Shown here: one piece after another, positions 11,194-48,628 of the stretch
Numbering within the stretch: position 1 is the first letter of the stretch
Layout of the letters: each line of letters opens with the position of its first letter
Assembly (NCBI GenBank): GCA_024640135.1
Contig: JAHEFO010000003.1
Span: 1 to 54,441, forward strand
DNA length: 54,441 bases
Direction of reading: 5' to 3'
Origin: Acidobacteriota bacterium
GTDB lineage: Bacteria; Acidobacteriota; Vicinamibacteria; Vicinamibacterales; SCN-69-37
The notes under the pieces: model-generated
The model's database searches: none
What the model was told of the DNA's origin: nothing
What the model saw: the letters and a program-made list of their open reading frames with translations, nothing else
Program-made: the position numbers and the translations under genes

Positions 11194-11222
11194 AATTACA
11201 AAATCAGCCGAGAATTACAAAA
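11194..11222. repeat. Direct repeat AATTACAAAA x2 (start-to-start 19 bp) in an AT-rich island
   Basis: Exact 10-mers at 11194-11203 and 11213-11222, inside the 145-bp spacer upstream of the kinase gene. Confidence 0.7.
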
Positions 11223-11242
11223 GTGTCAGGTTGGCCCCGGCT

Positions 11243-14198: not shown

Positions 14199-14201
14199 TG
14201 A

Positions 14202-31470: not shown

Positions 31471-31472
31471 CG

Positions 31473-34433: not shown

Positions 34434-36425
34434 CTACCGGCGGTCGTCCACTTGAATGCGAACGAAGTCGACAGCCGCGGCCAGCCGCCTGCCGTCTTGC
34501 CCGCCGACGTCGGAAGGCCTGGTGGCGCGTGTGAATCGCAGCGAGACGCGATTGATGCCGGCCTGCCACCACCCGGCGCTGGTCGCCAATTCGACCCGCT
34601 GCCAGATCCCCTCGATTTCTGGACCCTCAATCACGTGACCGTTGATGTCGATCGAGATCCGCTGTGGCGGTGCGCCCTCGTAGTCGAATGACCGCAGCTG
34701 AAGCTGCACCAGGAGCGGCGCGGCGTGGTCGAGAGGCACCAGAACATCGGCCCTGTCCTCGGCCCAGCGAAAGGTGATGTCACCGTCGCGTTCGGGTCCG
34801 TACCATCCGGCCCCAACGTACACCTCGTCGCCGGCGCCCACATCCACCCGGCCGTAGGGACGGGTGGGATCGCCCAGGAAGCGATTCGGTCGCAGAAGGT
34901 CGAATCGTTCCGGGGCCACGCCATTGCGCCACGCGAAGCCGAGGTTCGCGGGCATGGACCACGGGTGACCGAACCACCCGTGGAGGGTCGTGGCCTGCGC
35001 TGCCCCGAGATCGGCGAATGACACAATCTGCCCGATTCGATAGGTTCCTCCGCGAGCGACAGCCATCAGGGACACGTTCCACACGACCAGCAATCCCAGC
35101 AGGATGGCGGCCATGGCGGCAGGTCGTCTTGCGATAGCGCGCTGGCTGACGACGATGGCGGCGGCAAGAGCGGGCACGAGAAACGGAATCAGGCTGTCAA
35201 AGCGACGGCCGCCATAGCTGGCCCCCGCCCACCAGTCCTCCACGGCGGCATTGGTCCAGGCCATCAATGCAAACGTCAGCAGGCCGGCCGCGGCCAGGGC
35301 ACGGTGGCGTTTCCAGAGCGGCAGCAGGCCGAGCGCCGCGAGGTAGAGCGCGGGTGACGTGGCAAACAGTCCGCTGCGTGAGGACCACAACACGTCGATT
35401 AACTGCGGATGCATCCAGAACATCCGCGGACTCACGGGTGGCTGGGTGATCCAGGCGCCGTAGAGCGCGTGCCACGTCAGCATCTGTGGCAGCGTGCCGG
35501 CGAAAACCCCCAGGCCAAACAGGGCGAAGCGCCTGGGCTGCCGCAGGAACAGTAGTGACGGCAGCACAAGGACGATCGCATTCTGCCACCGCATGATCAC
35601 CATTACGCCGCCTGCCAGACCAAGCAGGACGAGCGACCGCCAGTCGTCGCGGGACCGAATCCTGGTCCAGGTGAGCGTGAAGGCCGCGACCGCGGCCATC
35701 GACACGGAGTGGCTCATCGTGGGTTCGCGGACGAGATACCAGAGCACAAATGAGCCCAGGCCAACCGCCACCACGGCAAGGGTGGCGGCGCGGGCGTCGC
35801 ATGAGCGTCTGGCCAGCCGGTACGCCAACCAGAGTCCAAGCAGGCCGTAGAAGAGCCCGCCCAGACAGACCGCCTGCCGGTAGGGGAAGGAGGTTCCATC
35901 GGTCTTGATGTCACGGCCGCCTGCCGCGAGCGCCGTCGCTGCCAGGTGTCCTGCTCCGAAGAACGGTGCCCATGCGATCGCAGGTCCGATTGCCCACGCA
36001 CTCTGGGCATAGCCGGTCACCGTCGGTTCCAGAAGGAACTGATGCTGGGCGTCATCCAGCCCGAGCAGTGCGTAGTCGTTTGTGAGATCGACGTCGTGGT
36101 CGAACCAGAGGGATCGGGTGAAGGCGAAGTAGTAGAAGCCGTCGCTTTGCAGGCGCGCGCCCAGTTGCAGTTGCGCGGCGATGCCGGCGGCGAAACAGGC
36201 CGCCAGCACGGCGGCGGTGCGGGACGCACGGGCACGAGGCGCTGCGCTGGCGAGGAGGAGTCCCGCGCCGGCGACCACGGCCACGACGCTCAACATTGGT
36301 GTGCCGCCCGCGTCGGCGCCGGCCCACTGCGCCAGAGGAAGACGGGTGAGTTGACGAAGGATCAAATCAAGCAGTCCCCCGGCGACCAACCCGACGCCGG
36401 CGATCGGCAGCGCCCGCATCCTCAT
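34434..36425 (-). CDS. Polytopic membrane protein, GT-C-like putative glycosyltransferase, paralog A, with extra C-terminal soluble domain
   Basis: I trimmed the start to MRMRALPIAG (ATG 36425, ATGA overlap with paralog B). About 12 hydrophobic segments. The first-loop motif is RLQSDGFYYFAFTRSLWFDHD. The C-terminal ~150 aa are non-hydrophobic (GAGWYGPERDGDITFRW...AAAVDFVRIQ). Confidence 0.72.
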   Translation of the reverse strand: MRMRALPIAGVGLVAGGLLDLILRQLTRLPLAQWAGADAGGTPMLSVVAVVAGAGLLLASAAPRARASRTAAVLAACFAAGIAAQLQLGARLQSDGFYYFAFTRSLWFDHDVDLTNDYALLGLDDAQHQFLLEPTVTGYAQSAWAIGPAIAWAPFFGAGHLAATALAAGGRDIKTDGTSFPYRQAVCLGGLFYGLLGLWLAYRLARRSCDARAATLAVVAVGLGSFVLWYLVREPTMSHSVSMAAVAAFTLTWTRIRSRDDWRSLVLLGLAGGVMVIMRWQNAIVLVLPSLLFLRQPRRFALFGLGVFAGTLPQMLTWHALYGAWITQPPVSPRMFWMHPQLIDVLWSSRSGLFATSPALYLAALGLLPLWKRHRALAAAGLLTFALMAWTNAAVEDWWAGASYGGRRFDSLIPFLVPALAAAIVVSQRAIARRPAAMAAILLGLLVVWNVSLMAVARGGTYRIGQIVSFADLGAAQATTLHGWFGHPWSMPANLGFAWRNGVAPERFDLLRPNRFLGDPTRPYGRVDVGAGDEVYVGAGWYGPERDGDITFRWAEDRADVLVPLDHAAPLLVQLQLRSFDYEGAPPQRISIDINGHVIEGPEIEGIWQRVELATSAGWWQAGINRVSLRFTRATRPSDVGGQDGRRLAAAVDFVRIQVDDRR

Positions 36426-38452
36426 CGCTGGCTCACCCGCAGAAAGTCGACGGCTGCCGCCAGCGCTCTGGTGTCGCCGCCAGCGCCCACGTCGACGGGG
36501 CGGGTCGCTCGCGCGAAACGAAGGCGGACGTGGTTGACGCCCGCGCGCCATGCCGATGCCCCGGTGGCAATCGAGACGACCTGCCACTCTTCGCCCACGC
36601 TGAATGGGCCGAACGTTTCAAGACCCGTGTCCAGGGTGACGCGCTGGACGGGGGCGCCTCCGAAGGAGAATGCGCGCAGGCGCAGTTGCACGTCCAGAGC
36701 CGACGCGTGCGCCAGCGGGACACGCAGCTGCGCGTCGCCGAGAGCCCATCGGAACGTCGTCTCACCGTCACGTTCCGGCGCGCCCCATCCGTCACCCAGC
36801 AGGGGCTCGTCGGCGCCACCGAGATCGACGCGGCCGTACGGTTGCCTCGGGTCGCCCAGGAAGTATGACGGCCGCACCACGTCGTACGACGCCACCGACA
36901 TGTCGTTCCGCCAGGCGAACCACCAGTTGGCGGGCGCCGAAAACGGATACCCGATCCATGAGTGAAGCGTGCGCACCTGGTCACCGGCCACCGGACCAAA
37001 TGGAATCGCTTCGCCGAGCCGGACGACGCCACGGTGCGCCGCCGACATCAGCGTGAGATTCCAGAGAATCGCGCCCGCGAGACCGGCACCGATCAGGGTT
37101 CGAGGCCGCTTTGCCGCCAGGCTCCGCAGCCACTGCCACGAGACGATCAGCCCCAGGGTGAGAATGGGCACCACGCCATCAAACCGCCGGCCGCCGAAGC
37201 CGTCCGAGCCCCACCAGTCCTGAATCGACGCATTGAAGTAGACCATCACCGCGGTGGCGGCCAGCAGTGGCAGTCCCGCCGCCCGATGGCGCACGGTGAA
37301 TCCCACGAGGCCGACGGCCGCGACATACAGGAGCGGCGACATCGCGAGCAGGCCGTTGCGCGACGAGAACAAGGTGAGTTCCAGTTGCGGCATCGTCCAG
37401 CGAATGACGGGACCGATGGGAGAGACGGCGAAGTAGGTCCCGTAGATCGCATGCCAGGCCAGGAGTTGCGGCAGGCTGGCGATCGTTGCCCCTGCCGTGA
37501 ACGCCAGGCCGCCTGTGACGATCGACCGGATGGACTCGCGCCCGGGAGAACGCCGGGCATGCCAGAGTGCGACGGCGACATCGCACGCCGGCACGATGGC
37601 GAAGAGGGCGTTCTGCCAGCGAATGAGCGTCATCAACCCGGCGAGGAGTCCAAGCGTGGTCCACCAGACGAGCTGAGTGCGTGACGGAGCCTGTGGGGTC
37701 CGCCGCTGGCGGCTCGCCGCCCAGCACCAGAGGAATCCCGCCACGGACGCCATCGAAGGCGCGTGGGTCATCGTGGGCTCAACCACGGTGTACCAGAGCA
37801 TGAACGAGCCACCTGCCATCAGCGCCACGGCTGTTGCGGCCTCGCGCCTGGTGAACCACTGTTCGGCGAGACGCAGCGTGAACCACCAGCCCAGGAGCGC
37901 GTAGCAGAGACCCGCGATGACCACGGACTGGCGGTACGGATACGACGTGCCATCAGTGGCGACATCTCGTCCCGCGGCGGCCAGGCGTGTGGCTGCCACG
38001 TGTCCCGCCGCAAAGAACGGCGACCACACAATGGCCGGTCCGATGGTCCAGGCTGAGTGCGCGTAGCCCGTGCGTGTGGGGCCGAACAACTGCGGCTTGT
38101 CGCCCTGGCCGAGCATACGGTAGTCGTTGGCCAGGCTCACGTCGCCATCGAATGCGATCGATCGAAGATAGGCGTAGTAGTAGAACGCGTCGCTTTGGAG
38201 CCGTGCGCCGGTCTGAAGCTGCCACGCCAGGCCCGCCGCGAGCGCACCGGCGAGCACGATCGCCGTGGCACGTTGTCGCTGCGTCAGGACCAGCGCGGCG
38301 GTTGCGGCGCAGCCGAGGAGCATCAGCGCCTCAGGCGACTCCGGGAGCCAGGGCAGCGATCGGACCCGCGTGAGCTGTCGTCCGACGACTTCAACGATGA
38401 GGCTTGCGAGCAGGAACCATGCGGCGGTACCGATCACCAGGCGCACTCGCAT
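36422..38452 (-). CDS. GT-C-like putative glycosyltransferase, paralog B, with the same C-terminal domain
   Basis: Alignable with paralog A along its full length (RLQSDAFYYYAYLRSIAFDGD; GDGWGAPERDGETTFRW...AAAVDFLRV). I chose the start at ATG 38452 because MRVRLVIG...RQLTRV aligns with MRMRALPIAG...RQLTRL of paralog A. GTG 38494 is the alternative. Confidence 0.72.
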   Translation of the reverse strand: MRVRLVIGTAAWFLLASLIVEVVGRQLTRVRSLPWLPESPEALMLLGCAATAALVLTQRQRATAIVLAGALAAGLAWQLQTGARLQSDAFYYYAYLRSIAFDGDVSLANDYRMLGQGDKPQLFGPTRTGYAHSAWTIGPAIVWSPFFAAGHVAATRLAAAGRDVATDGTSYPYRQSVVIAGLCYALLGWWFTLRLAEQWFTRREAATAVALMAGGSFMLWYTVVEPTMTHAPSMASVAGFLWCWAASRQRRTPQAPSRTQLVWWTTLGLLAGLMTLIRWQNALFAIVPACDVAVALWHARRSPGRESIRSIVTGGLAFTAGATIASLPQLLAWHAIYGTYFAVSPIGPVIRWTMPQLELTLFSSRNGLLAMSPLLYVAAVGLVGFTVRHRAAGLPLLAATAVMVYFNASIQDWWGSDGFGGRRFDGVVPILTLGLIVSWQWLRSLAAKRPRTLIGAGLAGAILWNLTLMSAAHRGVVRLGEAIPFGPVAGDQVRTLHSWIGYPFSAPANWWFAWRNDMSVASYDVVRPSYFLGDPRQPYGRVDLGGADEPLLGDGWGAPERDGETTFRWALGDAQLRVPLAHASALDVQLRLRAFSFGGAPVQRVTLDTGLETFGPFSVGEEWQVVSIATGASAWRAGVNHVRLRFARATRPVDVGAGGDTRALAAAVDFLRVSQR

Positions 38453-38463
38453 GGCAGCTCGTG

Positions 38464-40032
38464 TCACGGCGTTGGAACGCGAAAGACGCGCCACTCCGCA
38501 CCAGGGTGGTCACGATCGGGCACAAACGTGACCAGCGGTTCGAGCCGCCCGAACAATTCGCGGTACTGCATCGCCGTTCCCGATTGTGGCGGGTCGGTGT
38601 AGATGGGTGCGCCGAATGACTGTGACGAGGCGACCAGGTACTCGAAACCGTCAGCTTGATAGCCGGCAAAGTCCTTGTAGATGAGTCGGACGAAGTTCTC
38701 GACCTCGAACTGATCAGGGTTCAGCAGAATGCCGCGCGTCTCGATACCAATCCTGGCCCTCGGCGGCACGTGGTCGAGGATCCACTGGTAGGTCTGTTCG
38801 GCCGTGCTGACTTTGCGGGCATCGAGCACTGTGGCGACGCTGTTCGCGGCCGGCGTCCAGCACACAGCGAGCAACAGCCCCGCTGCCAGGGCCGCGACTC
38901 GGGCCGGGCGCATCTGCCGGGCATGCAACATCTCCAACCCCGTTGCCAGCGCCCCACCGGCCAGCACGCTGAGGAAGGGCAGCAACGGGAGGAGATACCG
39001 ACCGTACGTGAGCCGTTGTCCTGAAATCATCCAGAAGTAGATCACGGCAAACGAAGCGGTCATCGCCCAGCACGACGTTGCAGTGGCACGTCGCCGGGAC
39101 CACAGTGCGCGAGCCGCCAGTCCCAGGCCGGCACCCGCGACAAGGAGGCCCGGCATCGAGAAATTCAGGCGCAGGTGCTTGAAATAGATCAACCACCCCG
39201 GCTCCGGAGGCGGCGAGCCGACGGCGTACATGTAGGAAAGGTTCGCGAAGGCATCCAGGAATTCCGGCAATGCCAGAACGGTGTACGGGGCCCCAGCCAG
39301 AAACGCGACGCCTGCGCCGATCACCACCGTTGCAAGCGCACGCAGCTTCCACGACCAGTCGCCGGCGCCGATGAGCAGGACCAGCATCGGCAGGAGAACT
39401 GCAACGCCGCCGTTGTACTTCGTCGCCGCGGCGAGACCTGCCGCGACGCCCGTCCAGAAGAACGCGCGCAGTGTGTGATGTTCCTGCGCCCGCAACGCGA
39501 GTACCCATGTGAGCGCAACAAAGAACGTCGTGGGAACATCGGTCAGGACGAAATGCGATTCGCGAACGTGCATCGACTGGACGGCAAAGATGGCCGCCGA
39601 CAGCAAACCGGCGAGTGGCGAGATGCGGCTGGCGCCGCGGTACACCAGAAGTACTGTGAGAGTGCCGAATGTGGCGGTGACCGCGCGACCCCACAGGTAG
39701 AAATCAGCCGTGCCGACCTCGTTGAGGCTTGCCCACGCGCCCCCGATGCCGCCCACGACGAACCGGAGGCAGGCGGTCAGGAACTGGATGTAGATGTAGA
39801 GTCCCGGATAGTCGAAGAAGTACGGATGGAAGTCACCCGTCTTCATCATCCGGACGGCCCGTTCCATGATCTCGGGCTCGTCCACGCCAACGGCGAACGG
39901 GATGCCCTCCCCGAGCGCCGTGAAGCGCAGGGCGGCACCCAGGGCGAGAATGCACAACAGGAGGAACAGGTGCACGTGTCGAGGAGCCGGAGAGGACGAT
40001 GACATCGACGGCTTGATTGTAAATGGCATCAT
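38464..40032 (-). CDS. Glycosyltransferase family 39 / ArnT-PMT-like membrane glycosyltransferase
   Basis: I trimmed the start to MMPFTIKP (ATGA overlap with the upstream GT4). The first loop GVDEPEIMERAVRMMKTGDFHPYFFDYPGLYIY is typical of PMT_2/ArnT-type GT-C enzymes. It is multi-TM with a soluble C-terminal domain. Confidence 0.8.
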   Translation of the reverse strand: MMPFTIKPSMSSSSPAPRHVHLFLLLCILALGAALRFTALGEGIPFAVGVDEPEIMERAVRMMKTGDFHPYFFDYPGLYIYIQFLTACLRFVVGGIGGAWASLNEVGTADFYLWGRAVTATFGTLTVLLVYRGASRISPLAGLLSAAIFAVQSMHVRESHFVLTDVPTTFFVALTWVLALRAQEHHTLRAFFWTGVAAGLAAATKYNGGVAVLLPMLVLLIGAGDWSWKLRALATVVIGAGVAFLAGAPYTVLALPEFLDAFANLSYMYAVGSPPPEPGWLIYFKHLRLNFSMPGLLVAGAGLGLAARALWSRRRATATSCWAMTASFAVIYFWMISGQRLTYGRYLLPLLPFLSVLAGGALATGLEMLHARQMRPARVAALAAGLLLAVCWTPAANSVATVLDARKVSTAEQTYQWILDHVPPRARIGIETRGILLNPDQFEVENFVRLIYKDFAGYQADGFEYLVASSQSFGAPIYTDPPQSGTAMQYRELFGRLEPLVTFVPDRDHPGAEWRVFRVPTP

Positions 40033-41288
40033 GTCCGTCCGAGCAGGTTGTTGTAGTCCGCGATTTGCCGTTCGGCCAGCACGGCCCAGGAGAACTCCTC
40101 TTCGACGATCCGTCGACTGGCGTCCCCCATCCCCGCGAGTGCCGATCGCGCGGCGACGACCTCCGCGATCGCCTGCGCGAGGCCGTCGGCGGAGTCGATG
40201 TCCACGAGCCAGCCATTCACGCCAGGACGGACCTTGTCCGGGAGGCCTCCTGCGCGGGTCGCGATCACGGCGCGCCGGTGGGCCATCGCCTCGAGCGTGA
40301 CGAGCGAACTGCCTTCGTATCGACTCGGATGCGCGAAGACGGTCGCGGCCTCGTACCACGCGTGCAGGTCTGCATTTGAGACGCGGCCCGCGAACAACAC
40401 GTGTCGTCCCAGGCCCCGGGCCTCGACGATCGCCTCGATTGCGGCGCGATAGGGACCGGTGCCGGCCAGGACCCAGCGCCATTCCTGCCCGTCGAGCGGC
40501 CCGCCTGGTTGCGCGGCTCTTCCAAGGGCCGCGGCCATGACATCGAATCCCTTGTTGTGCTCCAGGCGCCCGACGCTGAGCAGCACGATCGTCTCGGCAC
40601 TGATGCCGTGTTGCCGGCGGATTCGCCGGCCATCGGCGGGACCGGCCAGTGCGCTCGTGTCAACCAGGTCGATGCCGTTCGGAATCACGACCAATTGGCC
40701 CTGTCGCGGCCGAAGGTGTCGCTCGACCACAGGCACAAGGGCGTGATCGGTTGCGATGATGGCTGCCGCCCGTCGTGTCGTGGCGCGGACGGCGGCGCGG
40801 AGCGGCGCATAGGCCCACCGCTTCAGGCCCGGCGGCGTGCCTGAGGACGCGCCGAATTCCTCCAGTCCCTGCGGGTTCACGACCAACGGCGGATCACCAG
40901 GGCGCTGCCCCAGGGCGTATCCCAGGCCGCTGGCGCCGAACGCATGCACGACGTCTATCGATCCTGCCCGTGCGAGCGCGAGCGCGACGCGCCCGGCCCG
41001 CCAGCCGAACAGCGGATAGGCCGTGCTCCGATCCAGGATGGTGGTGCCCCGCCTGTTGGCGAATGGAAACGTCAGGTAAGGCACATGCCGCAAGGTCACG
41101 CGCGCCGGCGCAAACGGGCTGGCCGAATCCGTCTGCCCACTCGACGGAGGCGGGGTGATGAGTGTGACCTCCACCTGACGCGCGGCAAGGTGCCGTACCA
41201 GGTCGTACACCGACTGCTCCAACCCGCCCAGGCCATGCAACGGGCGGACCGCGCGCGCAAGCACCGCCACTCTCAGAGGCGCATTCAT
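40029..41288 (-). CDS. Glycosyltransferase family 4 (GT-B fold)
   Basis: The N-terminus LRVAVLARAVRPLHGLGGLEQSVYDLVRHLAARQVEV and the C-terminal EGSSLVTLEAMAHRRAVIATRAGGLPD (E-x7-E-like motif) are typical of GT4. Confidence 0.85.
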   Translation of the reverse strand: MNAPLRVAVLARAVRPLHGLGGLEQSVYDLVRHLAARQVEVTLITPPPSSGQTDSASPFAPARVTLRHVPYLTFPFANRRGTTILDRSTAYPLFGWRAGRVALALARAGSIDVVHAFGASGLGYALGQRPGDPPLVVNPQGLEEFGASSGTPPGLKRWAYAPLRAAVRATTRRAAAIIATDHALVPVVERHLRPRQGQLVVIPNGIDLVDTSALAGPADGRRIRRQHGISAETIVLLSVGRLEHNKGFDVMAAALGRAAQPGGPLDGQEWRWVLAGTGPYRAAIEAIVEARGLGRHVLFAGRVSNADLHAWYEAATVFAHPSRYEGSSLVTLEAMAHRRAVIATRAGGLPDKVRPGVNGWLVDIDSADGLAQAIAEVVAARSALAGMGDASRRIVEEEFSWAVLAERQIADYNNLLGRT

Positions 41289-42550: not shown

Positions 42551-43716
42551 TGGTCAGATCCAGAGGATGCGGCCGCTGCGACCAGAGCGCTCAGCCTGAC
42601 CGCCAGCACGGCACAGTGGGCCCGCCAGCTGTAGTGATCGACCGCGCGGCTGCGCGCGGCCGCACCGAGCCGTTCACGCAGTGCGCGATCGAGGAGCTGC
42701 ACAAGCGCGGTGTCGAGCGTCCTGGGATCGGAAGGGTCGTAGAGCAGCCCTTCGTGGCCGTCCCTCACCAGTTCGGCAATCCGTGGCAGCCGCGGTGCGA
42801 CGACGGGAAGTCCGGCCGACATGTACTCGAATATCTTGAGTGGCGACCAGTAGAATCCAAGCGCCAGGGGTTTGTGTTTCGCCGGATCAAAAGGTGCCAC
42901 CCCGATATCGGCGGCGGCGAGGCACTCAGGCAGCCGATCGTGGGGGACCGCCCCGGTGAAAGTAATGCCGGGGATATCGCGCGCGGCGCGCTCAGCGGCC
43001 GCCCGTTCGGGGCCGTCACCGATGAAAACCGCGCCAAGGCGATGTTCGCCCTGGGCATGGAGGCGTGCGAGCGACGCCGACAGTTGAACGACTCCGTGCC
43101 ACGACCGGAACGCCCCGGCAAAGACGCATAACACCCGGTCGGGATCACGCTGGAACGGCAACGGCCCCGTCGCGTCAGGGCGAAAGAGATCGACGTCAGC
43201 GCCCCACTCGGCCTCGAGCACTCTCGTCGGGTCCACCCACGCGGGCAGAATTTGTGAATGGGGTGTGACAAACAAATCGGTGTGCCGGCACAACGCATCA
43301 CGCCAGCGGCGCATCGGTTCGATCAGCAGCGCGCGGTCGAGCCGCGACTTCGTTGATCCGGGGTAGTCGACGATCGGAGCGTTGACTTCGAGCACCGCCG
43401 GCACGCCGAGACGCCGCGCGGCCATGACCCCCTCGCCTCCGAAGTTGTAGTACCGCTCAATCACCACCTGCGCGCGGACCCGTCTGGCCAGCTCGGTAAT
43501 CGCCCCGGCGCGCATCCAGCGCAACGCGGGGCGGCCGAGCGGCGGGCCCATCGCGTGCCAGTGCACGGGTCCTTCGGGCCACGGCCCACCGGGCGACACG
43601 GCCACATGCATCTCATGACCGAGCGCCGCGAGGCCCCCCGCGACCGCCCGCACATGAACGGACCCGCCCAGGGTGCCTGGCACCTGCTGATCGATGGCCA
43701 CGTAGAGGATGCGCAC
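42547..43716 (-). CDS. Glycosyltransferase family 4 (GT-B fold)
   Basis: MRILYVAIDQQVPGTLGGSVHVRAVAGGLAALGHEMHV and ...SPLKIFEYMSAGLPVVAPRLPRIAE. The start is GTG (cac on plus at 43714-43716), 1 nt after the methyltransferase stop. Confidence 0.85.
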   Translation of the reverse strand: MRILYVAIDQQVPGTLGGSVHVRAVAGGLAALGHEMHVAVSPGGPWPEGPVHWHAMGPPLGRPALRWMRAGAITELARRVRAQVVIERYYNFGGEGVMAARRLGVPAVLEVNAPIVDYPGSTKSRLDRALLIEPMRRWRDALCRHTDLFVTPHSQILPAWVDPTRVLEAEWGADVDLFRPDATGPLPFQRDPDRVLCVFAGAFRSWHGVVQLSASLARLHAQGEHRLGAVFIGDGPERAAAERAARDIPGITFTGAVPHDRLPECLAAADIGVAPFDPAKHKPLALGFYWSPLKIFEYMSAGLPVVAPRLPRIAELVRDGHEGLLYDPSDPRTLDTALVQLLDRALRERLGAAARSRAVDHYSWRAHCAVLAVRLSALVAAAASSGSDQ

Positions 43717-43717
43717 G

Positions 43718-44746
43718 TCAGCGCTCCTGGCGCGGCCGCTTACGCAGTCGCGCGAAAAAGGGGCCGGACCGGACGCGACCCCAGAGCAGGACGTCGAGGT
43801 ACATCAGGCCCGTCATCGCCCGCGTCGCCCAATACAGCGGTCCGCGCCGGCGCAGCCGGGCCTTGGCGTGAGCCCTGGCCTCACGCACGGCGGCGCCCTG
43901 GTCGTTGCCGCGGCGCGCCATCAGTCGCTCGGCCATGCGCATCAGGATGTTCTCGGCGAATGCGCCGATGATCGGCGTGTAGTACGTGATGCGCTCGACA
44001 TCGAAACCGGCGGCGAAGGCCACACGAATGAGGTCGTCGTGGTCTGCAATGGGATTGAGATGATCCGACTTCCGCAGCCGTTCGGTTCTCAGGTCGATCA
44101 AGCCGAGGCGTTCCAGTCCGTGGGCCAGGCGATTGACGAGCCTGACACCCAGCGCGAGCGGGCCGTTCTTACGGACGTGCGTGTAGATGAACAGCGCACC
44201 GTCATCCGTCAGCACTCGACTGGCCTCGGACAGCATGTCGTGCAGGGCCTGCGGTGACAGATGCTCGAGCACGTCGAGCGACCACGCCTTGTTGAACGCT
44301 TCGTCCGCCAGGGGCAGGCGCCGGAGGTCGCCCAGGAGAAGATCGCATTCGTCCAGGGCCTCTTTGGCGAAGAAGGCGCTGATGTCGATACCGGTGAACG
44401 ACGCGCCCGTGTCGCGATTCCAGATCATCGCGCGGCCGCTGCCACATCCGAGGTCCACGACGCGATCGCCAGGCGCGAGGTCCAGGAACGCGCGCAGTTG
44501 GTCGTTCCGGATCTTCGATCCCAGCAGCGGAGGGCCGACGGTTTCGTGGCGCGCGTCGACGTGCAGCGCCTCATCGAGATACTTGGTCTGTTCCTGAAAC
44601 GCCTCCAGAGGACGCAGATCCAGGTAGCCACTCGCGTCAGTAAATGTCCGTTGGCATCTGGGACACACGGCGCCAGCCGGCTGAGGCGTGAGGGCCACGG
44701 CGCATTCGGGACACCGGGCGACCGTGAAGAGTGATGCCGAAATCAT
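43718..44746 (-). CDS. Class I SAM-dependent methyltransferase with N-terminal zinc ribbon
   Basis: I trimmed the start to MISASLF (ATGA overlap). CPECAVALTPQPAGAVCPRCQ forms a CxxC...CxxC ribbon. SAM motif I is VVDLGCGSG. DVLEHL is also present. A ~100-aa basic/hydrophobic C-terminal extension follows. Confidence 0.85.
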   Translation of the reverse strand: MISASLFTVARCPECAVALTPQPAGAVCPRCQRTFTDASGYLDLRPLEAFQEQTKYLDEALHVDARHETVGPPLLGSKIRNDQLRAFLDLAPGDRVVDLGCGSGRAMIWNRDTGASFTGIDISAFFAKEALDECDLLLGDLRRLPLADEAFNKAWSLDVLEHLSPQALHDMLSEASRVLTDDGALFIYTHVRKNGPLALGVRLVNRLAHGLERLGLIDLRTERLRKSDHLNPIADHDDLIRVAFAAGFDVERITYYTPIIGAFAENILMRMAERLMARRGNDQGAAVREARAHAKARLRRRGPLYWATRAMTGLMYLDVLLWGRVRSGPFFARLRKRPRQER

Positions 44747-45933
44747 GCTGACACCGCCGACGTGAAGGCCTCGTCGAGCCGCTCCGCCCGGCGGTCCCAG
44801 GTGTACTCCGCAGACAGGGCCCGCGCCGCCTGGCCCAGGCGGCGGCGGCGTGACGGATCCGACGCCAGGGTGGACAACGCCGCGGCCAGGGCCGTGGCAT
44901 CCCCGGGTGGGACCAGCCACGCCGTGACATCGTGCGTGACGATTTCGCGGATGGCCGGCAAGTTGGACGCGATGATCGCGCCGCCCTGCGCCAGGTACTC
45001 GAACAGCTTCAGTGGTGATGTGTAGCGTTCGGAGATGGCCGTGGCCGTGTTGGGGAGGACGAAAATGTCCGCCGTCCCGAGTGCCGCCGCCACGTCGGGC
45101 GGCGGCAGCAGCCCGGTGATCGTCAGTCGCGCGTTGAGTCCCAGCGACTGCGCCAGTGCCGTGACGCGCGCCAGGTCGGTTTCGCCAGGGTGGCCGCCGA
45201 CGATGACTCCGTCAACGTGTGGCGTGGCCGCGAGGGCCTGCAGGAATACATCCACGCCCTTCCACGGATACAGGTGACCGGCATAGGCGGCCCGCACGCG
45301 CGAGGCACGCGGGAGAGACGCGGCGCCGCTGGTTTCGAGATTCGCGCCGTCGGGCACCACAAACACGCGATCGCGGACGCCGTACCGAACGGCGAGGTCG
45401 TCGGCGAGAGTGCGGGTGATAGTCACGTAGGCGTCGGCGTGCTTCCACACGAGGGCTTCGCGGCGATCGAGTCTGGCGATCTTCCGCTGCGAGGGCACCG
45501 GCGCGGAGGCTCCGAGCAAGAGCGGCATCGAGGCACTGACGATGGGGGCGATGCCGTGCGATTCATAGACCAGTCGTGGCCTCCGGGTCGCGGGCAGGCG
45601 CGCGAGCAGGGCGGCCAGACCGAGGTCGCGCGTGTAGATCACGTCAACGTCGGTCCCGAGGGCGCGCCTGAGTGCGGTCCAGAGCATCTGAACGCGACGG
45701 CCCGTGGTGCCTCCCGATGCGGGCACCGTCTCGATGACCAGTGCCGGCGTCGCCGGCACGCCGTAGAACTGAAACGGATCACGGGCAGGTTCCACCGAAT
45801 CAGGCCGGACGAGCAGGGTGACCTGATGCCCGCGCGCCGCCAGCGCCCGGCACGTCGCCATTGTCTGCACACCGTTGGCGCGCTCGATCGGGAATCGGGT
45901 ATCGGCGAAGGACAGGAGTCGCAACGGCGTCAC
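44743..45933 (-). CDS. Glycosyltransferase family 4 (GT-B fold)
   Basis: LRLLSFADTRFPIERANGVQTMATCRALAARGHQVTLLV and ...SPLKLFEYLAQGGAIIASNLPAIRE. The start is uncertain: I chose GTG 45933 (TTG 45936 is adjacent). The track ORF extension to 46140 overlaps the upstream gene and is Arg/Pro-rich. Confidence 0.75.
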   Translation of the reverse strand: MTPLRLLSFADTRFPIERANGVQTMATCRALAARGHQVTLLVRPDSVEPARDPFQFYGVPATPALVIETVPASGGTTGRRVQMLWTALRRALGTDVDVIYTRDLGLAALLARLPATRRPRLVYESHGIAPIVSASMPLLLGASAPVPSQRKIARLDRREALVWKHADAYVTITRTLADDLAVRYGVRDRVFVVPDGANLETSGAASLPRASRVRAAYAGHLYPWKGVDVFLQALAATPHVDGVIVGGHPGETDLARVTALAQSLGLNARLTITGLLPPPDVAAALGTADIFVLPNTATAISERYTSPLKLFEYLAQGGAIIASNLPAIREIVTHDVTAWLVPPGDATALAAALSTLASDPSRRRRLGQAARALSAEYTWDRRAERLDEAFTSAVSA

Positions 45934-46039
45934 CAAAGGCTTCGCCGTATCTCGCGTGTCACCACCGCGCGGTGGCAGGCGAGGACCCGCGTCACAACGA
46001 CTGTGATCGTCTGGGCTCGGTGGGACAGGGAAAGAGATA

Positions 46040-47386
46040 TCACTGGCGTGGTTGACGGTAGAACGAGTCACGATCCACGAGGTACCGCCAGGCCAGCGAC
46101 GGCGCATCACGCGGCAACTCGACAAACGTCTGCCAAGCATTGTCTCTCAAAGTGAGTTGCTCGCGGTCCATTCGGTGAGTGCCGAATTGCAGGAGCAGCC
46201 CCAGGTTCCACCAGACACAGAGCCCGGTGAGGGTCCACATCAGGCGCCGCCAGCCGCGGCCCGACGGCATGGCCGCCGCCAGCCCCAGCACGAGGAGAGG
46301 GGTGAGCTCAACGAACCGCCGATGGCCGAAGGAGCCGGCGACCGTCCACGATTCCACGGCTCCGTTGATGTAGATTTGCAGCGCCACAATCGCCAGCGCG
46401 CAGCCCCCGAGCCACCGGCTGTCGTCGAGACGGGCTCGGACGCGTCCGGTGGCGAGTGCCAGCAGGCCGGCCAGGGACAGAATCGCGAGTGGCGTCCAGG
46501 CCAACCACCCGTGTCGAGGGTCCACGAGGACGCCGAACGCGTGAGGTGAGAGCCAGGACATCTTGTTCCCGATCGACTCGTGCGGGCCGAAGTGGCCGTT
46601 GACAGCGCGCGCCGCCAGCAACTGCGGTGTGTACGCCACGAGCGTCGCACACGTGCCCGCGATCGCCAGGCGACCGGCGCGACGCCAGTCCCGGCGGTCC
46701 AGCGCCCAGCGGCCGAAGTCCAGCGCCGGGCCAATCGCAAAGAGACCGGCCTGATCACGCATCGTCGCCATGAGTCCCACCGTGAGCCCGAGCACCACGA
46801 CGCCCCGAAGGGACCATGATTCGCGGACCCGGAGCCAGGTCCACAGGGAAAGCGCGACAGCGAACGTTGCGCAGGCATGTGAGAACGGCGGGGCCACGTA
46901 GATGTAGAAGAGCAACGGCGAGCCAGCGAGCACCGCCAGTGCGGCTCCCGTGCCGCGACCCAGCCAGCGATGCGCGATGGCCGCCGACAGGAGCACCGCG
47001 AGCCAGCCATAGAACGCCGACGCATAGGTGACGGCTGAGACATAGGGCTGGCTGTAGCCGTCCTGCGGCGCTCCCAGGATTCCTGCCGCCACGTGGCCGG
47101 CGCCGTAGAAGGGGGCCCAGAGCAGCGCGGGACCGATAGTGGCGAAGTTGAGACGACGGCCCGCGAGCGTATAGCGATCCCCCAGGAATGTCTCGTGGAA
47201 GCCGGGGCCGCCGGCGCCGGCCTCAAAGAAGTGCTGGTATTCGTTCTCGAAGCTGAGGTCGTGATCGAATGCCAGCGACCGCAGGAAGGCGAAGTACTCC
47301 ACCTCGTCGGACGCGTAGATGCGGGTCGTCACCGCCGGCAACGTGATGACGGCCAGGAGTCCGATTGCGAGGAGGCGCCTGGTCAT
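46040..47386 (-). CDS. GT-C-like putative glycosyltransferase, paralog C (no C-terminal domain)
   Basis: Same family as paralogs A and B: IYASDEVEYFAFLRSLAFDHD, IGPALLWAPFYGAGHVAAG. It has 448 aa, is multi-TM and ends soon after the last hydrophobic segment. Confidence 0.7.
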   Translation of the reverse strand: MTRRLLAIGLLAVITLPAVTTRIYASDEVEYFAFLRSLAFDHDLSFENEYQHFFEAGAGGPGFHETFLGDRYTLAGRRLNFATIGPALLWAPFYGAGHVAAGILGAPQDGYSQPYVSAVTYASAFYGWLAVLLSAAIAHRWLGRGTGAALAVLAGSPLLFYIYVAPPFSHACATFAVALSLWTWLRVRESWSLRGVVVLGLTVGLMATMRDQAGLFAIGPALDFGRWALDRRDWRRAGRLAIAGTCATLVAYTPQLLAARAVNGHFGPHESIGNKMSWLSPHAFGVLVDPRHGWLAWTPLAILSLAGLLALATGRVRARLDDSRWLGGCALAIVALQIYINGAVESWTVAGSFGHRRFVELTPLLVLGLAAAMPSGRGWRRLMWTLTGLCVWWNLGLLLQFGTHRMDREQLTLRDNAWQTFVELPRDAPSLAWRYLVDRDSFYRQPRQ

Positions 47387-48199
47387 TCACCGGCCCAGGC
47401 CGAGCGAGGCGGCCAGCGCCTGTTGGAGAACCTGTGCGGCGTTGAATCCGGCGTGGTTCGAGATGGACATCAGGATTGAGCCTCGGCGGATATACAGCGC
47501 GCCCCAGGCAAGACCGAGCAGGCCGATGGCCAGTGCAATGTCGCGGCCCTGGTCGAGGTGCAACAGGCCAAAGGCCAGTCCGAACACGAGGTTCCCGACC
47601 CACATTCCACCCAGGCTCTGACCAAAACGATGCAGGATGAATCCTCGCTGCAGTTCTTCGCGAACGCCTCCTGCCAGCACGACGACCACTGCGAAGATCG
47701 CGGTATCGAGCGGGTTGGTCATGAAGGCCGCCAGCGGATTCTCCCGGACGTTATTGAGTGAGGGCGCCAGGGCGCGCATGGCGAAGACCAGGCCCGTGAC
47801 CAGGACGAATGCGACTGGCACGAGCGCGAGTCCGCGCCCAATCTCTCCCAGGGGCCGTCGTCGTCCGAGAAACACGTCACGAGAATGTTCGCCACTGGCC
47901 ATCAGGAACACGCGAATAAGAAGGGCGATGAGCGCCGTGTCCAGGAAGCTGACGGTGGCGATAAACTCCAGCGACAATCCTCCGCTTGTCACCGGTGCCA
48001 TCCTTGCGCCCACGATCAGCGCAGTGGCGACAGCGATTTGAGTGGGAATGCCGCAGACGGCGATCGCCTGCAGCAGCGCGAAGTGCCAGGGCGGCGGATT
48101 TCCACGCGGACCGGCGGGTAGGACCAGGACGCCCGGTTCGTTCAGTTGTGCAGAATCGGCAGGGATCAGTGCCGGCTCTGCGTGCACGGAGTCGTCCAT
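47387..48199 (-). CDS. CPBP-family (CAAX/Abi-type) intramembrane glutamic endopeptidase
   Basis: Motifs GGVREELQRGFILHRF (EE...R), FGLLH (FxxxH) and SNHAGFN (HxxxN) sit in hydrophobic segments. The stop directly abuts the ATG of paralog C. Confidence 0.78.
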   Translation of the reverse strand: MDDSVHAEPALIPADSAQLNEPGVLVLPAGPRGNPPPWHFALLQAIAVCGIPTQIAVATALIVGARMAPVTSGGLSLEFIATVSFLDTALIALLIRVFLMASGEHSRDVFLGRRRPLGEIGRGLALVPVAFVLVTGLVFAMRALAPSLNNVRENPLAAFMTNPLDTAIFAVVVVLAGGVREELQRGFILHRFGQSLGGMWVGNLVFGLAFGLLHLDQGRDIALAIGLLGLAWGALYIRRGSILMSISNHAGFNAAQVLQQALAASLGLGR

Positions 48200-48244
48200 T
48201 CGGCATCACTGTATCAGTTCGATCTCGCAGTCCTTCGGCACTGG

Positions 48245-48282
48245 ACTTTCGTGATACTTTCGTTTTCTGGGATGCCGAAAGT
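48245..48282. repeat. Three copies of heptamer ACTTTCG (two direct with 11-bp phasing, one inverted)
   Basis: ACTTTCGT at 48245-48252 and 48256-48263. The inverted CGAAAGT is at 48276-48282. The flanks CCTTCGGCA / TGCCGAAAG are also near-complementary. The set lies 46-83 nt upstream of the CPBP start. Confidence 0.6.
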
Positions 48283-48354
48283 GAAGGGCCCAGGTTGGGA
48301 ACTGGGAGCCGAAAAATAGGGCAGGTGAAAGAAGGGCCCGTACTTGCGTGTGGA

Positions 48355-48402
48355 TCTCAAGATGTGGCGTCTTCAGGCCGGAACATCCCCCATATGTCGT
48401 GG
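48355..48402. promoter_or_regulatory. Candidate tandem NrdR boxes
   Basis: TCTCAAGATGTGGCGT (48355-48370) and CCCCCATATGTCGTGG (48387-48402) each keep the C.C.A.AT.T.G.G core of the 16-bp NrdR-box consensus acaCwAnATnTwGtgt. Centres are 32 bp apart, just upstream of a -35 element for nrdJ. Confidence 0.45.
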
Positions 48403-48410
48403 GTTCTGTC

Positions 48411-48439
48411 TTGACATCGCTACGAGTCGGGAGCATATT
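48411..48439 (+). promoter_or_regulatory. Sigma-70-type promoter candidate TTGACA-N17-CATATT
   Basis: A perfect -35 hexamer at 48411-48416, a 17-nt spacer, and a -10-like CATATT at 48434-48439. It would give nrdJ a leader of about 180 nt. Confidence 0.45.
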
Positions 48440-48628
48440 CGTGACCCGGCGTTGCAACAGCCGAATCGGTGCTTCCCAGCGTTCCGATCGTGACTTCTGC
48501 CTCCTCGTTGTTCACAGGAGGAGGGCTCCTGTTGCTGGCGTCGGTGAAGAGGCAGAGTCGTTGGTCGGGAAACACGACCGTATCCGGGGCGGATGCGGTG
48601 CTATGTACGAAAGATAAAGGTCAAAGAG

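What the first reader, a model, noticed from the sequence alone, without database searches (positions are those of the whole stretch)
34434..48199. Ten-gene translationally coupled envelope-glycosylation locus rich in GT-C membrane transferases: best candidate for an undescribed system
The minus-strand order is CPBP protease, GT-C-like paralog C, GT4, Zn-ribbon SAM methyltransferase, GT4, GT4, GT4, GT39/ArnT-like, GT-C-like paralog B, GT-C-like paralog A. Five junctions are ATGA overlaps (36422-25, 40029-32, 41285-88, 42547-50, 44743-46), two are 0-1 nt apart, and one is 11 nt apart (or a 31-nt overlap with the alternative GTG start of paralog B). Only one junction has a real gap. I see no Wzx/Wzy/ABC exporter, no polyprenyl-phosphate priming transferase, no GT2 polyprenyl-P-sugar synthase and no nucleotide-sugar genes. 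Four cytosolic GT-B enzymes combined with four periplasm-facing GT-C-type enzymes follows the logic of actinobacterial PIM/LM/LAM assembly or protein O-mannosylation. It does not follow the logic of a typical Gram-negative O-antigen or EPS locus. Yet the host is a diderm, with bamA and tamB immediately adjacent and convergent.
Basis: partly seen in the sequence, partly recalled or inferred. Interest (0 to 1): 0.78.

Follow-up and report, generated by a model that had tools for sequence, protein, structure and literature searches.

The report
Conserved Vicinamibacteria envelope-glycan assembly operon
This is a real ten-gene operon, conserved across one abundant class of soil Acidobacteria, that pairs four cytoplasmic sugar transferases and a methyltransferase with four membrane transferases facing the periplasm; it most likely builds a conserved lipid-anchored envelope glycan whose product has never been studied, but all its parts are known enzyme types.

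Summary
There are ten minus-strand genes at 34434-48199, with five ATGA overlaps, two 0-1 nt junctions, one 11-nt junction and one spacer of about 115 nt.

Domain calls are confirmed: a CPBP protease, four GT4 enzymes, a zinc-ribbon SAM methyltransferase, a PMT/GT39-like GT-C and three paralogous membrane proteins.

An AlphaFold model of paralog B (pLDDT 86.8) matches EmbC/EmbA/EmbB, STT3/AglB, ArnT and AftA. Its C-terminal 135 residues match CBM6/35 jelly rolls. The paralogs are therefore GT-C transferases, and two of them carry a carbohydrate-binding module.

The gene order is conserved. In 39 of 52 informative Vicinamibacteria species loci the GT4/methyltransferase block lies upstream of paralog B. 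Omp85 lies downstream in 36 of 38.

The 54-kb window holds no priming transferase, flippase, exporter, GT2 or nucleotide-sugar gene. I found no paper on the locus.

Best reading: a two-compartment assembly line, with cytoplasmic GT4 and methylation steps, an unlinked flip, and periplasmic GT-C extension, for a conserved lipid-anchored envelope glycan.

This logic is already known from PIM/LM/LAM, from Rhizobium LPS core with RgtA-D, and from O-antigen GT136 three-component systems. I therefore rate it a new variant of a known kind. Interest is moderate (0.42).

The parts
47387..48199 (-). CPBP (Rce1-like) intramembrane glutamic protease, 270 aa, first gene of the operon
   Evidence: PF02517, 57.9 bits. 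The EExxxR, FxxxH and HxxxN motifs are conserved in 24 orthologues. Six hydrophobic segments. 0-nt junction to the next gene.
46040..47386 (-). Paralog C: GT-C-type membrane glycosyltransferase without a C-terminal module, 448 aa
   Evidence: 35% identical to paralog B over 365 residues. One TM is followed by a 94-residue loop carrying a conserved S-D-E-x-(E/Q)-Y...FD.D motif. No Pfam hit.
45925..46039 (-). Only real intergenic spacer in the operon (about 115 nt)
   Evidence: Orthologue N-termini place the GT4a start at TTG 45924. L002 has a 4-nt overlap at this junction instead.
44743..45924 (-). GT4a: cytoplasmic GT-B (family 4) glycosyltransferase, about 393 aa
   Evidence: Glycos_transf_1 at 90 bits and Glyco_transf_4 at 66 bits. 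The best PDB sequence hits are generic GT4 enzymes: SPS, MshA, PimA, PimB'.
43718..44746 (-). Zinc-ribbon plus class I SAM methyltransferase, 342 aa
   Evidence: Methyltransf_11 at 56.9 bits. CxxC...CxxC and DLGCGSG are conserved in 47 orthologues. ATGA overlap with GT4a.
42547..43716 (-). GT4b: cytoplasmic GT-B glycosyltransferase, 389 aa
   Evidence: Glyco_trans_1_4 at 83.5 bits. 1-nt junction.
41285..42550 (-). GT4c: GT-B glycosyltransferase with a conserved four-Cys insertion, 421 aa
   Evidence: Glyco_transf_4 at 83.7 bits and Glycos_transf_1 at 84 bits. The best PDB hit is PimB', E 4.6e-12. The Cys insertion is conserved and an EX7E motif is present.
40029..41288 (-). GT4d: GT-B glycosyltransferase, 419 aa
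   Evidence: Glycos_transf_1 at 118.6 bits. EX7E motif present. PDB hits are SPS, MshA and PimB'.
38464..40032 (-). PMT/GT39-like GT-C glycosyltransferase with a roughly 120-aa C-terminal periplasmic alpha/beta domain, 522 aa
   Evidence: PF02366 at 50 bits and PF13231 at 40 bits. PDB sequence hits are only Pmt1, a Chaetomium PMT and Pmt4, with no ArnT. AF2 model pLDDT 90.6. Foldseek matches AglB/STT3, ALG9/12, ArnT (TM 0.57-0.59) and Pmt4. The VDEPE loop-1 motif is conserved.
36422..38452 (-). Paralog B: GT-C glycosyltransferase with a C-terminal CBM6/35-like jelly roll, 676 aa
   Evidence: AF2 pLDDT 86.8, pTM 0.84. Foldseek matches EmbC, EmbA and EmbB at E 4e-6 to 4e-5, plus STT3, AglB, ArnT and AftA; residues 541-676 match CBM6/35/4. 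hhalign to the PMT-like family gives E 8e-5 over 325 columns.
34434..36425 (-). Paralog A: tandem duplicate of paralog B (GT-C plus CBM-like module), 663 aa, last gene
   Evidence: 47% identical to B over 599 residues. PF13231 at 32.4 bits, above the cutoff. Present only in some lineages; 11 of 39 loci have it.
48200..48592 (.). Divergent intergenic region between the operon and the class II RNR gene; presumed promoter region
   Evidence: There is no ORF here. The only sigma-70-like match is on the + strand at 48411-48439. No Rfam match.
27268..34421 (+). Context, not part of the operon: TamB (27268-31470) and a six-POTRA Omp85 (31473-34421), convergent with the locus
   Evidence: Pfam TamB/DUF748 and Omp85/POTRA. 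Omp85 lies downstream in 36 of 38 related loci with enough flank.

Best explanation
The locus is a single operon, fixed across the class Vicinamibacteria, that assembles one conserved lipid-anchored envelope glycan in two compartments.

Steps, all inferred:
1. At the cytoplasmic face, the four retaining-type GT4 enzymes add sugars from nucleotide-sugar donors to a membrane-lipid acceptor. The acceptor could be lipid A-Kdo, a glycerophospholipid, or a polyprenyl-linked primer made elsewhere.
2. The zinc-ribbon SAM methyltransferase O-methylates one residue.
3. The intermediate is flipped by an unlinked housekeeping transporter.
4. Four GT-C enzymes then extend or branch the glycan using polyprenyl-phosphate-sugar donors made by an unlinked synthase. 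Their conserved acidic loop-1 motifs and other invariant motifs lie in loops predicted to be periplasmic.
5. The one or two CBM-bearing paralogs (B, and A where present) hold the growing glycan chain, as EmbC, AftD and GT136 ORF12 do.
6. The CPBP protease has an accessory role that is unresolved.

Shown: gene content, enzyme folds, motif conservation and synteny.
Inferred: the order of steps, the donors, the acceptor and the product.

My split for the anchor:
- LPS inner region or core-like: about 35%.
- PIM/LM-like glycerolipid lipoglycan: about 25%.
- Polyprenyl-linked intermediate ending on another acceptor: about 25%.
- Other: about 15%.
For: Operon structure:
- Ten same-strand genes with five 4-nt overlaps.
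- No excess of terminator-like sites: 10 found against 7.2 +/- 2.8 in shuffles.

Enzyme identity:
- Four GT4 enzymes and the MTase have no hydrophobic segments (MTase shown; Pfam).
- Four multi-pass proteins have a GT-C fold.

Topology:
- Hydropathy and K+R counts place the 95-residue loop 1 on the non-cytoplasmic side. The motifs E225/H230, RWQN, D412-W-W...RRFD and the C-terminal 204 residues fall on the same side (invariant columns).
- The C-terminal module matches carbohydrate-binding modules.
- CBMs on the GT-C enzymes EmbC, AftD and ORF12 bind the acceptor glycan (PMC11127046).

Conservation:
- In 39 of 52 informative loci the GT4/MTase block lies upstream of paralog B. Among these, PMT is present in 33 and paralog C in 32. 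Orthologue identities are 40-80%.
- This pattern fits a structural, non-variable glycan. It does not fit hypervariable O-antigen or EPS loci.

Missing functions:
- No priming, flippase, exporter or donor genes are in the window. This fits a pathway that relies on housekeeping machinery.
Against: - There is no biochemical or genetic evidence.
- Donors, acceptor, flippase and polyprenyl-P-sugar synthase are all unidentified and unlinked.
- Only the 54-kb window and 22-kb loci could be inspected, not whole genomes.
- The PMT-like gene's only PDB sequence relatives are protein O-mannosyltransferases, which hints at a protein acceptor.
- The CPBP protease has no place in known lipoglycan or LPS pathways.
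- No Kdo, heptose or lpx genes, and no acyltransferase or PI-synthase genes, are nearby to support either anchor.
- A sub-clade (L055-L060) lacks the PMT gene and has paralog B in a different position. Membership of the set is therefore not absolute.
Confidence: 0.55

Rival explanations
1. Protein O-glycosylation system. The PMT-like GT-C transfers the first sugar from a polyprenyl-P-sugar to Ser/Thr of exported envelope proteins. The three paralogs elongate the glycan in the periplasm. The CPBP protease processes the glycoprotein substrate. The GT4 enzymes and the MTase make a lipid-linked or soluble precursor.
For: - The PMT-like protein hits PF02366.
- With both the single sequence and the profile, it hits only Pmt1, Pmt4 and a Chaetomium PMT in the PDB, and not ArnT.
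- Its DE loop-1 motif is conserved.
- A catalytically intact protease is the first gene of the operon.
Against: - Four cytoplasmic GT4 enzymes and a methyltransferase have no role in known PMT pathways.
- PF02366 also covers the lipid A transferase family GT83 (own knowledge).
- The fold search does not separate PMT from ArnT or ALG.
- A sub-clade keeps the rest of the locus without the PMT gene.
- No candidate substrate gene is conserved in the locus.
Confidence: 0.15
2. An ordinary secreted or surface polysaccharide locus (O-antigen, capsule or EPS). Its priming transferase, flippase/polymerase or ABC exporter and sugar-nucleotide genes simply lie elsewhere. The GT-C enzymes perform post-polymerisation side-chain additions, as in three-component systems.
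For: - The weak best NCBIfam hits of the GT4 enzymes are to EPS and PEP-CTERM-associated GT4 families.
- The C. youngae O1 O-antigen cluster combines GT4 enzymes, a methyltransferase and a GT-C with a CBM (PMC11127046).
- One relative (L081) has a GT2 gene next to the locus.
Against: - No export, polymerase, priming, synthase or flippase gene is linked in the window or in any of the roughly 40 syntenic loci examined.
- All NCBIfam scores are far below cutoffs, for example 116 against 409 bits.
- Strict class-wide conservation of gene content and order is unlike strain-variable polysaccharide loci.
Confidence: 0.12
3. No single system. The genes are a syntenic block of independent glycosyltransferases that serve several pathways, kept together by descent within one class rather than by shared function.
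For: - All relatives come from one class, so synteny may partly reflect common ancestry.
- Extra copies of the CBM-bearing GT-C occur alone in unrelated contexts.
- A parB-parA-PMT trio exists without GT4 genes.
Against: - Translational coupling at seven of nine junctions.
- Similar overlaps in relatives.
- The order is kept down to about 40-50% protein identity, where a sub-clade shows rearrangement of one gene only.
Confidence: 0.08

Closest known systems
Mycobacterial PIM / lipomannan / lipoarabinomannan assembly (PimA, PimB', PimE, MptA/B, EmbC; reviews PMC3229680, PMC12041525)
   Same: Cytoplasmic GT4 enzymes act on a membrane-lipid acceptor. The intermediate is flipped by an unlinked or unknown transporter. 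Several periplasm-facing GT-C enzymes that use polyprenyl-P-sugars then act on it, and some carry C-terminal CBMs. EmbC, EmbA and EmbB are the best structural matches of paralog B. PimB' and PimA are among the best PDB hits of the GT4 enzymes.
   Different: The similarities are generic: 13% identity and TM-score 0.32-0.36 to Emb, and GT4 hits that cover mainly the C-terminal half. No acyltransferase, PI-synthase or Ppm1 gene is nearby. The host is a diderm Acidobacteriota. The locus also has a CPBP protease and a methyltransferase.
Citrobacter youngae O1 O-antigen cluster with the GT136 three-component side-chain system (PMC11127046)
   Same: It has GT4 mannosyltransferases and a SAM methyltransferase (WbdD). 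Its GT-C enzyme has 11 TM helices, a helical periplasmic domain after TM1 and a C-terminal CBM that binds the acceptor glycan. This is the same architecture as paralogs A and B. The catalytic D-x-x-E-Y after TM1 resembles S-D-E-V-E-Y of paralog C.
   Different: That cluster carries its own ABC exporter, sugar-nucleotide genes, polyprenyl-phosphoribose synthase and MATE flippase. None is linked here. Sequence homology to GT136 could not be tested, because no sequence could be obtained. There are four GT-C genes here rather than one.
Rhizobium-type LPS core assembly with periplasmic GT-C decoration (RgtA/RgtB on Kdo2-lipid A; ArnT, FlmK; PMC4402001)
   Same: Cytoplasmic Leloir transferases build on lipid A-Kdo. 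MsbA flips the product, and several ArnT-like GT-C enzymes then add sugars in the periplasm. No dedicated priming enzyme, flippase or exporter is needed in the locus. The function is conserved and structural.
   Different: No Kdo transferase, heptosyltransferase, lpx or WaaL genes are nearby. Rgt and ArnT enzymes lack CBMs. The PMT-like protein shows no sequence hit to ArnT.
Eukaryotic ALG dolichol pathway and Campylobacter pgl locus
   Same: GT4-type enzymes act at the cytoplasmic face (Alg2/Alg11; PglA/H/J). GT-C enzymes then act on the other side of the membrane. STT3, AglB, PglB, ALG9 and ALG12 are strong structural matches of the PMT-like protein.
   Different: There is no phosphoglycosyl priming transferase and no PglK/Rft1-type flippase. 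There is no WWDxG-type oligosaccharyltransferase C-terminal domain. Matches are at fold level only (10-15% identity).

Membership tests
GT-C superfamily (paralogs A, B, C) | Polytopic membrane protein with a long first extracytoplasmic loop carrying conserved acidic residue(s) | tested here: met
   There are 8-13 hydrophobic segments. The 94-95-residue loop after the TM has invariant S87-D88, D102 and D104. D102/D104 align with the DE motif of the PMT-like family in hhalign.
GT-C superfamily (paralogs A, B, C) | Structural similarity to solved GT-C enzymes | tested here: met
   The Foldseek top 14 hits are all GT-C: EmbC/A/B, STT3, AglB, ArnT and PglB, with E 4e-6 to 8e-4. TM-scores are only 0.3-0.4, so the match is at fold level. 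Only paralog B was modelled; A and C are assigned by homology.
GT-C superfamily (paralogs A, B, C) | Uses a polyprenyl-phosphate-linked sugar donor | not testable with these tools
   Needs enzymology. No donor synthase gene is linked.
GT39 protein O-mannosyltransferase (PMT-like gene 38464-40032) | PF02366 match above threshold and a loop-1 Asp-Glu motif | tested here: met
   PF02366 scores 50 bits against a cutoff of 22.7. VDEPE is conserved in 46 orthologues. The only PDB sequence hits are Pmt1, Pmt4 and a Chaetomium PMT.
GT39 protein O-mannosyltransferase (PMT-like gene 38464-40032) | Transfers mannose to Ser/Thr of proteins; eukaryotic members have a MIR domain in loop 5 | tested here: inconclusive
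   There is no MIR hit, but bacterial PMTs also lack it (own knowledge). The acceptor is not testable. PF02366 also covers GT83.
GT83 ArnT-type lipid A transferase | Sequence relationship to ArnT and linkage to arn-type donor genes (ArnA-D, ArnE/F) | tested here: not met
   No ArnT hit at E<=1 with the sequence or the profile. There is only fold similarity, TM 0.57-0.59. No arn-like genes are in the window.
PIM/LM/LAM pathway | PimA/PimB' orthologues, PatA acyltransferase, PimE/Mpt GT-C enzymes and Ppm1 synthase | tested here: not met
   GT4 hits to PimA and PimB' are generic (E 1e-8 to 1e-15, alongside SPS, MshA and PglA). No acyltransferase or GT2 is in the locus or window.
GT136 three-component pentofuranose system | GT-C with 11 TM, a periplasmic helical domain and a C-terminal CBM | tested here: met
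   The model and hydropathy of paralog B were compared with the published description.
GT136 three-component pentofuranose system | Adjacent polyprenyl-phosphoribose synthase (UbiA family) and MATE/SMR flippase; sequence homology to ORF12 | tested here: not met
   No such genes are in the window or the related loci. Homology could not be tested because no GT136 sequence could be fetched. Pfam gives PMT_2, not EpsG, for paralog A.
Wzx/Wzy- or ABC-transporter-dependent polysaccharide locus | Priming phosphoglycosyl transferase plus flippase/polymerase or ABC exporter in the locus | tested here: not met
   None was found among the scanned window ORFs or in the syntenic loci.
LPS core (waa-type) locus | Kdo transferase (GT30), heptosyltransferases (GT9) or O-antigen ligase alongside core GTs | tested here: not met
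   Only GT4 and GT-C families were found. Heptose-less cores built by GT4 enzymes exist (own knowledge), so the function is not excluded.
CPBP / Rce1-like intramembrane protease | PF02517 match and the EExxxR, FxxxH and HxxxN motifs | tested here: met
   57.9 bits against a cutoff of 22.4. All three motifs are conserved in 24 orthologues.

The most novel reading that the evidence does not exclude
Vicinamibacteria, a diderm lineage, make a mycobacterial-style lipoglycan. In this reading, GT4 enzymes build it on a membrane phospholipid, and Emb-like CBM-bearing GT-C enzymes polymerise it in the periplasm. It then reaches the outer membrane through the conserved neighbouring TamB/Omp85 machinery, and the CPBP protease controls the pathway. 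This would be a lipoglycan envelope component outside the Actinobacteria.
Probability: 0.1. Interest if true: 0.75.

Novelty: new variant of a known kind. Interest (0 to 1): 0.42.

Why it matters
Vicinamibacteria (Acidobacteria subdivision 6) are among the commonest soil bacteria, and their envelope chemistry is essentially unknown. A ten-gene operon fixed across the class points to a conserved surface or envelope glycoconjugate that nobody has isolated. The operon has four periplasm-facing GT-C enzymes, two of them with carbohydrate-binding modules.

The operon gives concrete targets for glycolipid, LPS and glycoprotein analysis: gene deletions in cultured members of the class, if they carry it, and the soluble CBM as a probe.

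It also adds a large GT-C subfamily with a CBM tail that has no characterised member among the sequences examined here. The profile finds about 1,900 50%-identity clusters at E<=1e-30.

The biochemical logic itself is not new.

Tried and rejected
- Anti-phage defence system: PADLOC gave only a partial generic methyltransferase hit. The PF20706 hit of GT4d (32.6 bits) is far below its generic GT4 score. Rejected.
- Structured RNAs or riboswitches: no Rfam match anywhere in the window.
- Internal promoters or terminators: consensus scans were at chance level.
- Sequence search of the paralog profile against the PDB: no hit at E<=10, so the fold had to be shown by modelling.
- Contexts of solitary paralog copies (L065-L073, L083, L046, L051, L056), searched for a recurrent donor synthase or flippase. 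Only xanthine-dehydrogenase-like, PEGA-domain and amino-acid permease genes were found.
- Contexts of distant homologues from other phyla (Hydrogenedentota and an unnamed metagenome): solitary genes in unrelated surroundings.
- Accessory genes in variant loci: one GT2 in L081 only.
- tblastn of paralog B against all PLSDB plasmids: one weak hit, uninformative.
- Attempts to fetch a GT136 sequence failed, because the records (BK026208, CP099034, CP032687) are not in the held collections. The paper's supplement holds the alignment only as an image.
- Literature searches for the locus, for Vicinamibacter glycosyltransferases and for polar lipids found nothing relevant.
- Assigning specific sugars or linkages to the GT4 enzymes: all NCBIfam equivalog scores are far below cutoffs and PDB hits are generic.

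Full report
**1. Observation**

The region 34434-48199 holds ten consecutive minus-strand ORFs. I read the junctions directly.

- Five are ATGA overlaps, at exactly the coordinates given.
- CPBP to paralog C is 0 nt, and MTase to GT4b is 1 nt.
- PMT-like to paralog B is 11 nt with ATG 38452, or a 31-nt overlap with GTG 38494.
- The only true spacer is paralog C to GT4a. Orthologue N-termini (V-x-I-L-S-F-A-D-T-R-F-P) place the GT4a start at TTG 45924. This leaves about 115 nt where the relative L002 has a 4-nt overlap.

Terminator-like and promoter-like matches inside the block are at shuffle level. The window has no Rfam match.

**2. What the genes are**

- The first gene is Rce1-like/CPBP.
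- Four genes carry Glyco_transf_4 plus Glycos_transf_1 and are GT4 enzymes.
- The methyltransferase matches Methyltransf_11/25/23.
- The gene at 38464-40032 matches PMT and PMT_2.
- Paralog A matches PMT_2 at 32 bits. Paralogs B and C have no hit.

NCBIfam gives only sub-threshold, generic matches.

Paralogs A and B are 47% identical over 599 residues. B and C are 35% identical over the membrane part, and C lacks the roughly 200-residue tail.

Conserved motifs in orthologues:
- The CPBP keeps EExxxR, FxxxH and HxxxN.
- The methyltransferase keeps CxxC...CxxC and DLGCGSG.
- GT4c has a conserved four-Cys insertion.
- The PMT-like protein keeps VDEPE in loop 1.
- Paralog C keeps S-D-E-x-(E/Q)-Y...F-D-x-D.

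**3. Fold of the paralogs**

A profile of 35 family members finds nothing in the PDB by sequence. An AlphaFold2 model of paralog B is confident (pLDDT 86.8, pTM 0.84).

Foldseek returns only GT-C enzymes at the top: EmbC, EmbA, EmbB, STT3, AglB, ArnT, PglB and AftA (E 4e-6 to 1e-3). A long series of CBM6/CBM35/CBM4 modules then aligns to residues about 541-676. TM-scores are 0.3-0.4, so this is a fold-level match and not family membership.

Profile-profile comparison links the paralog family to the PMT-like family (E 8e-5, 325 columns). It aligns D102/D104 with the PMT DE motif.

Hydropathy and positive-inside counts, read with the invariant columns, place several features on the periplasmic side. 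These are the 95-residue loop 1, the motifs E225/H230, R-W-Q-N, D412-W-W...R-R-F-D, and the C-terminal module.

The PMT-like protein also models well (pLDDT 90.6). It matches AglB/STT3, ALG9/ALG12, ArnT (TM 0.57-0.59) and Pmt4. By sequence it hits only protein O-mannosyltransferases in the PDB, not ArnT.

The GT4 enzymes hit sucrose-phosphate synthase, MshA, PimB', PimA, GlgM and PglA alike. No specificity can be read from that.

**4. Surroundings**

The locus is convergent with TamB (27268-31470) and a 982-aa Omp85 with six POTRA stretches (31473-34421). It is divergent from a class II ribonucleotide reductase.

The rest of the window holds housekeeping and regulatory genes. These include dprA, topA, trmFO and xerC, a two-component/sigma-54 pair, an ABC-F protein, an ECF sigma/anti-sigma pair, an amino-acid permease, carboxylase subunits, transaldolase and an FAA hydrolase.

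No priming transferase, Wzx/Wzy, polysaccharide ABC exporter, GT2, GtrA/MATE flippase or nucleotide-sugar gene was found among the ORFs of at least 180 aa that were scanned.

**5. Relatives**

The window is a 54,441-bp NCBI contig. Close homologues of paralog B number 636 clusters at 90% identity. Where they are named, they are Vicinamibacterales or Acidobacteriota MAGs.

- Three long contigs show the whole order, CPBP-parC-GT4-MT-GT4-GT4-GT4-PMT-parB(-parA), followed by convergent Omp85-TamB. Paralog B identity in these runs down to 52%.
- A scan of one genome per GTDB species gave 79 loci.
- Of the 52 loci with at least 8 kb upstream, 39 carry the GT4/methyltransferase block. Of those 39, 33 have PMT, 32 have paralog C and 24 have the CPBP. 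The CPBP count is limited by the 10-kb flank.
- Omp85 lies downstream in 36 of 38 of these loci.
- Paralog A is a tandem duplicate seen mainly in the clade closest to the window (11 of 39).
- A sub-clade (L055-L060) has paralog B between the methyltransferase and GT4b, and has no PMT gene.
- Thirteen loci hold solitary paralog copies in unrelated contexts.
- One 5.77-Mb genome has a parB-parA-PMT trio without GT4 genes.

The wider GT-C-plus-CBM family is large. The profile finds 1,880 clusters at 50% identity with E<=1e-30 and 10,202 with E<=1e-3. It reaches other phyla, including Hydrogenedentota and a Bacillota-labelled MAG. In the two distant examples inspected, the gene stands alone. The ten-gene arrangement is therefore specific to Vicinamibacteria.

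**6. Mechanism**

The shown facts are these:
- Four soluble GT-B enzymes and a soluble methyltransferase.
- Four GT-C enzymes with periplasm-facing conserved motifs.
- One or two of the GT-C enzymes with a CBM-like module.
- Tight translational coupling.
- Class-wide conservation.

The best-supported inference is a two-compartment assembly line.

1. GT4 enzymes and the methyltransferase build a short methylated oligosaccharide on a membrane-lipid acceptor at the cytoplasmic face.
2. An unlinked transporter flips it.
3. The GT-C enzymes extend or branch it with polyprenyl-P-sugar donors.
4. The CBM holds the acceptor chain, as shown for EmbC, AftD and GT136 ORF12 (PMC11127046).

Strict conservation of content and order argues for a structural, non-variable glycan and against an O-antigen or EPS. 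The anchor is unresolved.

- An LPS-core-type reading explains the missing priming, flippase and export genes, since MsbA and Lpt are unlinked (PMC4402001). It also fits the outer-membrane biogenesis neighbourhood. It lacks any Kdo, heptose or lpx linkage.
- A PIM/LM-like reading fits the Emb-like GT-C enzymes with CBMs. It lacks an acyltransferase, a PI synthase or precedent in diderms.
- A protein-acceptor reading fits the PMT-like sequence affinities and the protease. It leaves the GT4 enzymes unexplained.

**7. Comparison with known systems and novelty**

The closest known systems are mycobacterial PIM/LM/LAM, the C. youngae O1 O-antigen cluster with its GT136 GT-C-plus-CBM enzyme, Rhizobium-type LPS core with RgtA/B, and the ALG and pgl pathways. 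Each shares the two-face logic. None shares the gene set, and every membership test beyond superfamily level failed or was inconclusive (see the membership table).

I found no paper on this locus. It is not a defence system.

I rate it a new variant of a known kind. It is an uncharacterised, lineage-specific operon made of known enzyme families. Its interpretation is partly supported: the PIM/LM/LAM analogy is reasonable, but the claim that the logic is foreign to Gram-negative bacteria is too strong.

Interest is 0.42. It is a good experimental lead into the unknown envelope chemistry of a dominant soil lineage, but a glycobiologist would not find it surprising.

Noticed in passing
window 27268-34421 (+): TamB (1400 aa) is followed after 2 nt by a 982-aa Omp85 with six POTRA stretches. 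BamA usually has five and TamA three. The pair stays convergent with the glycan operon in 36 of 38 related loci, including the rearranged sub-clade. Functional linkage, for example export of the product, is untested.
   Followed up: partly
L065-L073, L083, L046, L051, L056 (match at about 10001-12000 in each): Extra solitary copies of the CBM-bearing GT-C occur elsewhere in Vicinamibacteria genomes. In L066-L073 they share a second syntenic context next to a PEGA-domain gene and xanthine-dehydrogenase-like genes. No glycosylation partner is nearby.
   Followed up: partly
L001 10001-15181: A 5.77-Mb contig carries a parB-like (682 aa), a shorter parA-like (510 aa) and a PMT-like gene together, without GT4, methyltransferase or CPBP genes. 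This suggests the GT-C enzymes can act as a separate module.
   Followed up: no
window 45925-46039 (-): A spacer of about 115 nt separates paralog C and GT4a, where relative L002 has a 4-nt overlap. It contains the 12-nt palindrome CACCGCGCGGTG. Possibly a lineage-specific insertion or an internal regulatory site.
   Followed up: no
window 41285-42550 (-), GT4c residues about 134-163: A conserved four-cysteine insertion (C...CPxC...C) lies within the N-terminal GT4 domain. It is kept in 44 orthologues and may be a zinc-binding element.
   Followed up: partly
window 46040-47386 (-), paralog C residues about 26-31: The motif S-D-E-V-E-Y directly after TM1 resembles the catalytic D31-x-x-E34-Y35 reported for the GT136 founder ORF12 (PMC11127046). 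Paralogs A and B have D-x-F-Y-Y instead. Homology to GT136 could not be tested.
   Followed up: partly
L055-L060: A Vicinamibacteria sub-clade has paralog B inserted between the methyltransferase and GT4b, and lacks the PMT-like gene. The PMT-like enzyme is therefore dispensable for the conserved core.
   Followed up: partly
L081 11917-12774 (-): In one relative, a 285-aa GT2 gene lies directly beside the locus, and the PMT-like gene follows paralog B. This is the only linked GT2 seen.
   Followed up: no
L085 10001-12442 (protein P0251): A distant homologue of the paralog family (813 aa) carries an ILEI/FAM3-type domain instead of the CBM6/35-like tail. This suggests modular swapping of the periplasmic glycan-binding domain.
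   Followed up: no
window 2554-8468 (+): A housekeeping block of dprA, topA, trmFO (GIDA family) and xerC-type recombinase. Further on there is a sigma-54 response regulator/histidine kinase pair (8442-11097, -) and an ECF sigma with a zf-HC2 anti-sigma (13593-14933, +).
   Followed up: no
window 35946-36965 (+), 45190-46155 (+), 38714-39694 (-): Long antisense or out-of-frame ORFs (320-340 aa) overlap the real genes. They are shadow ORFs typical of 65-69% G+C DNA, not genes.
   Followed up: no
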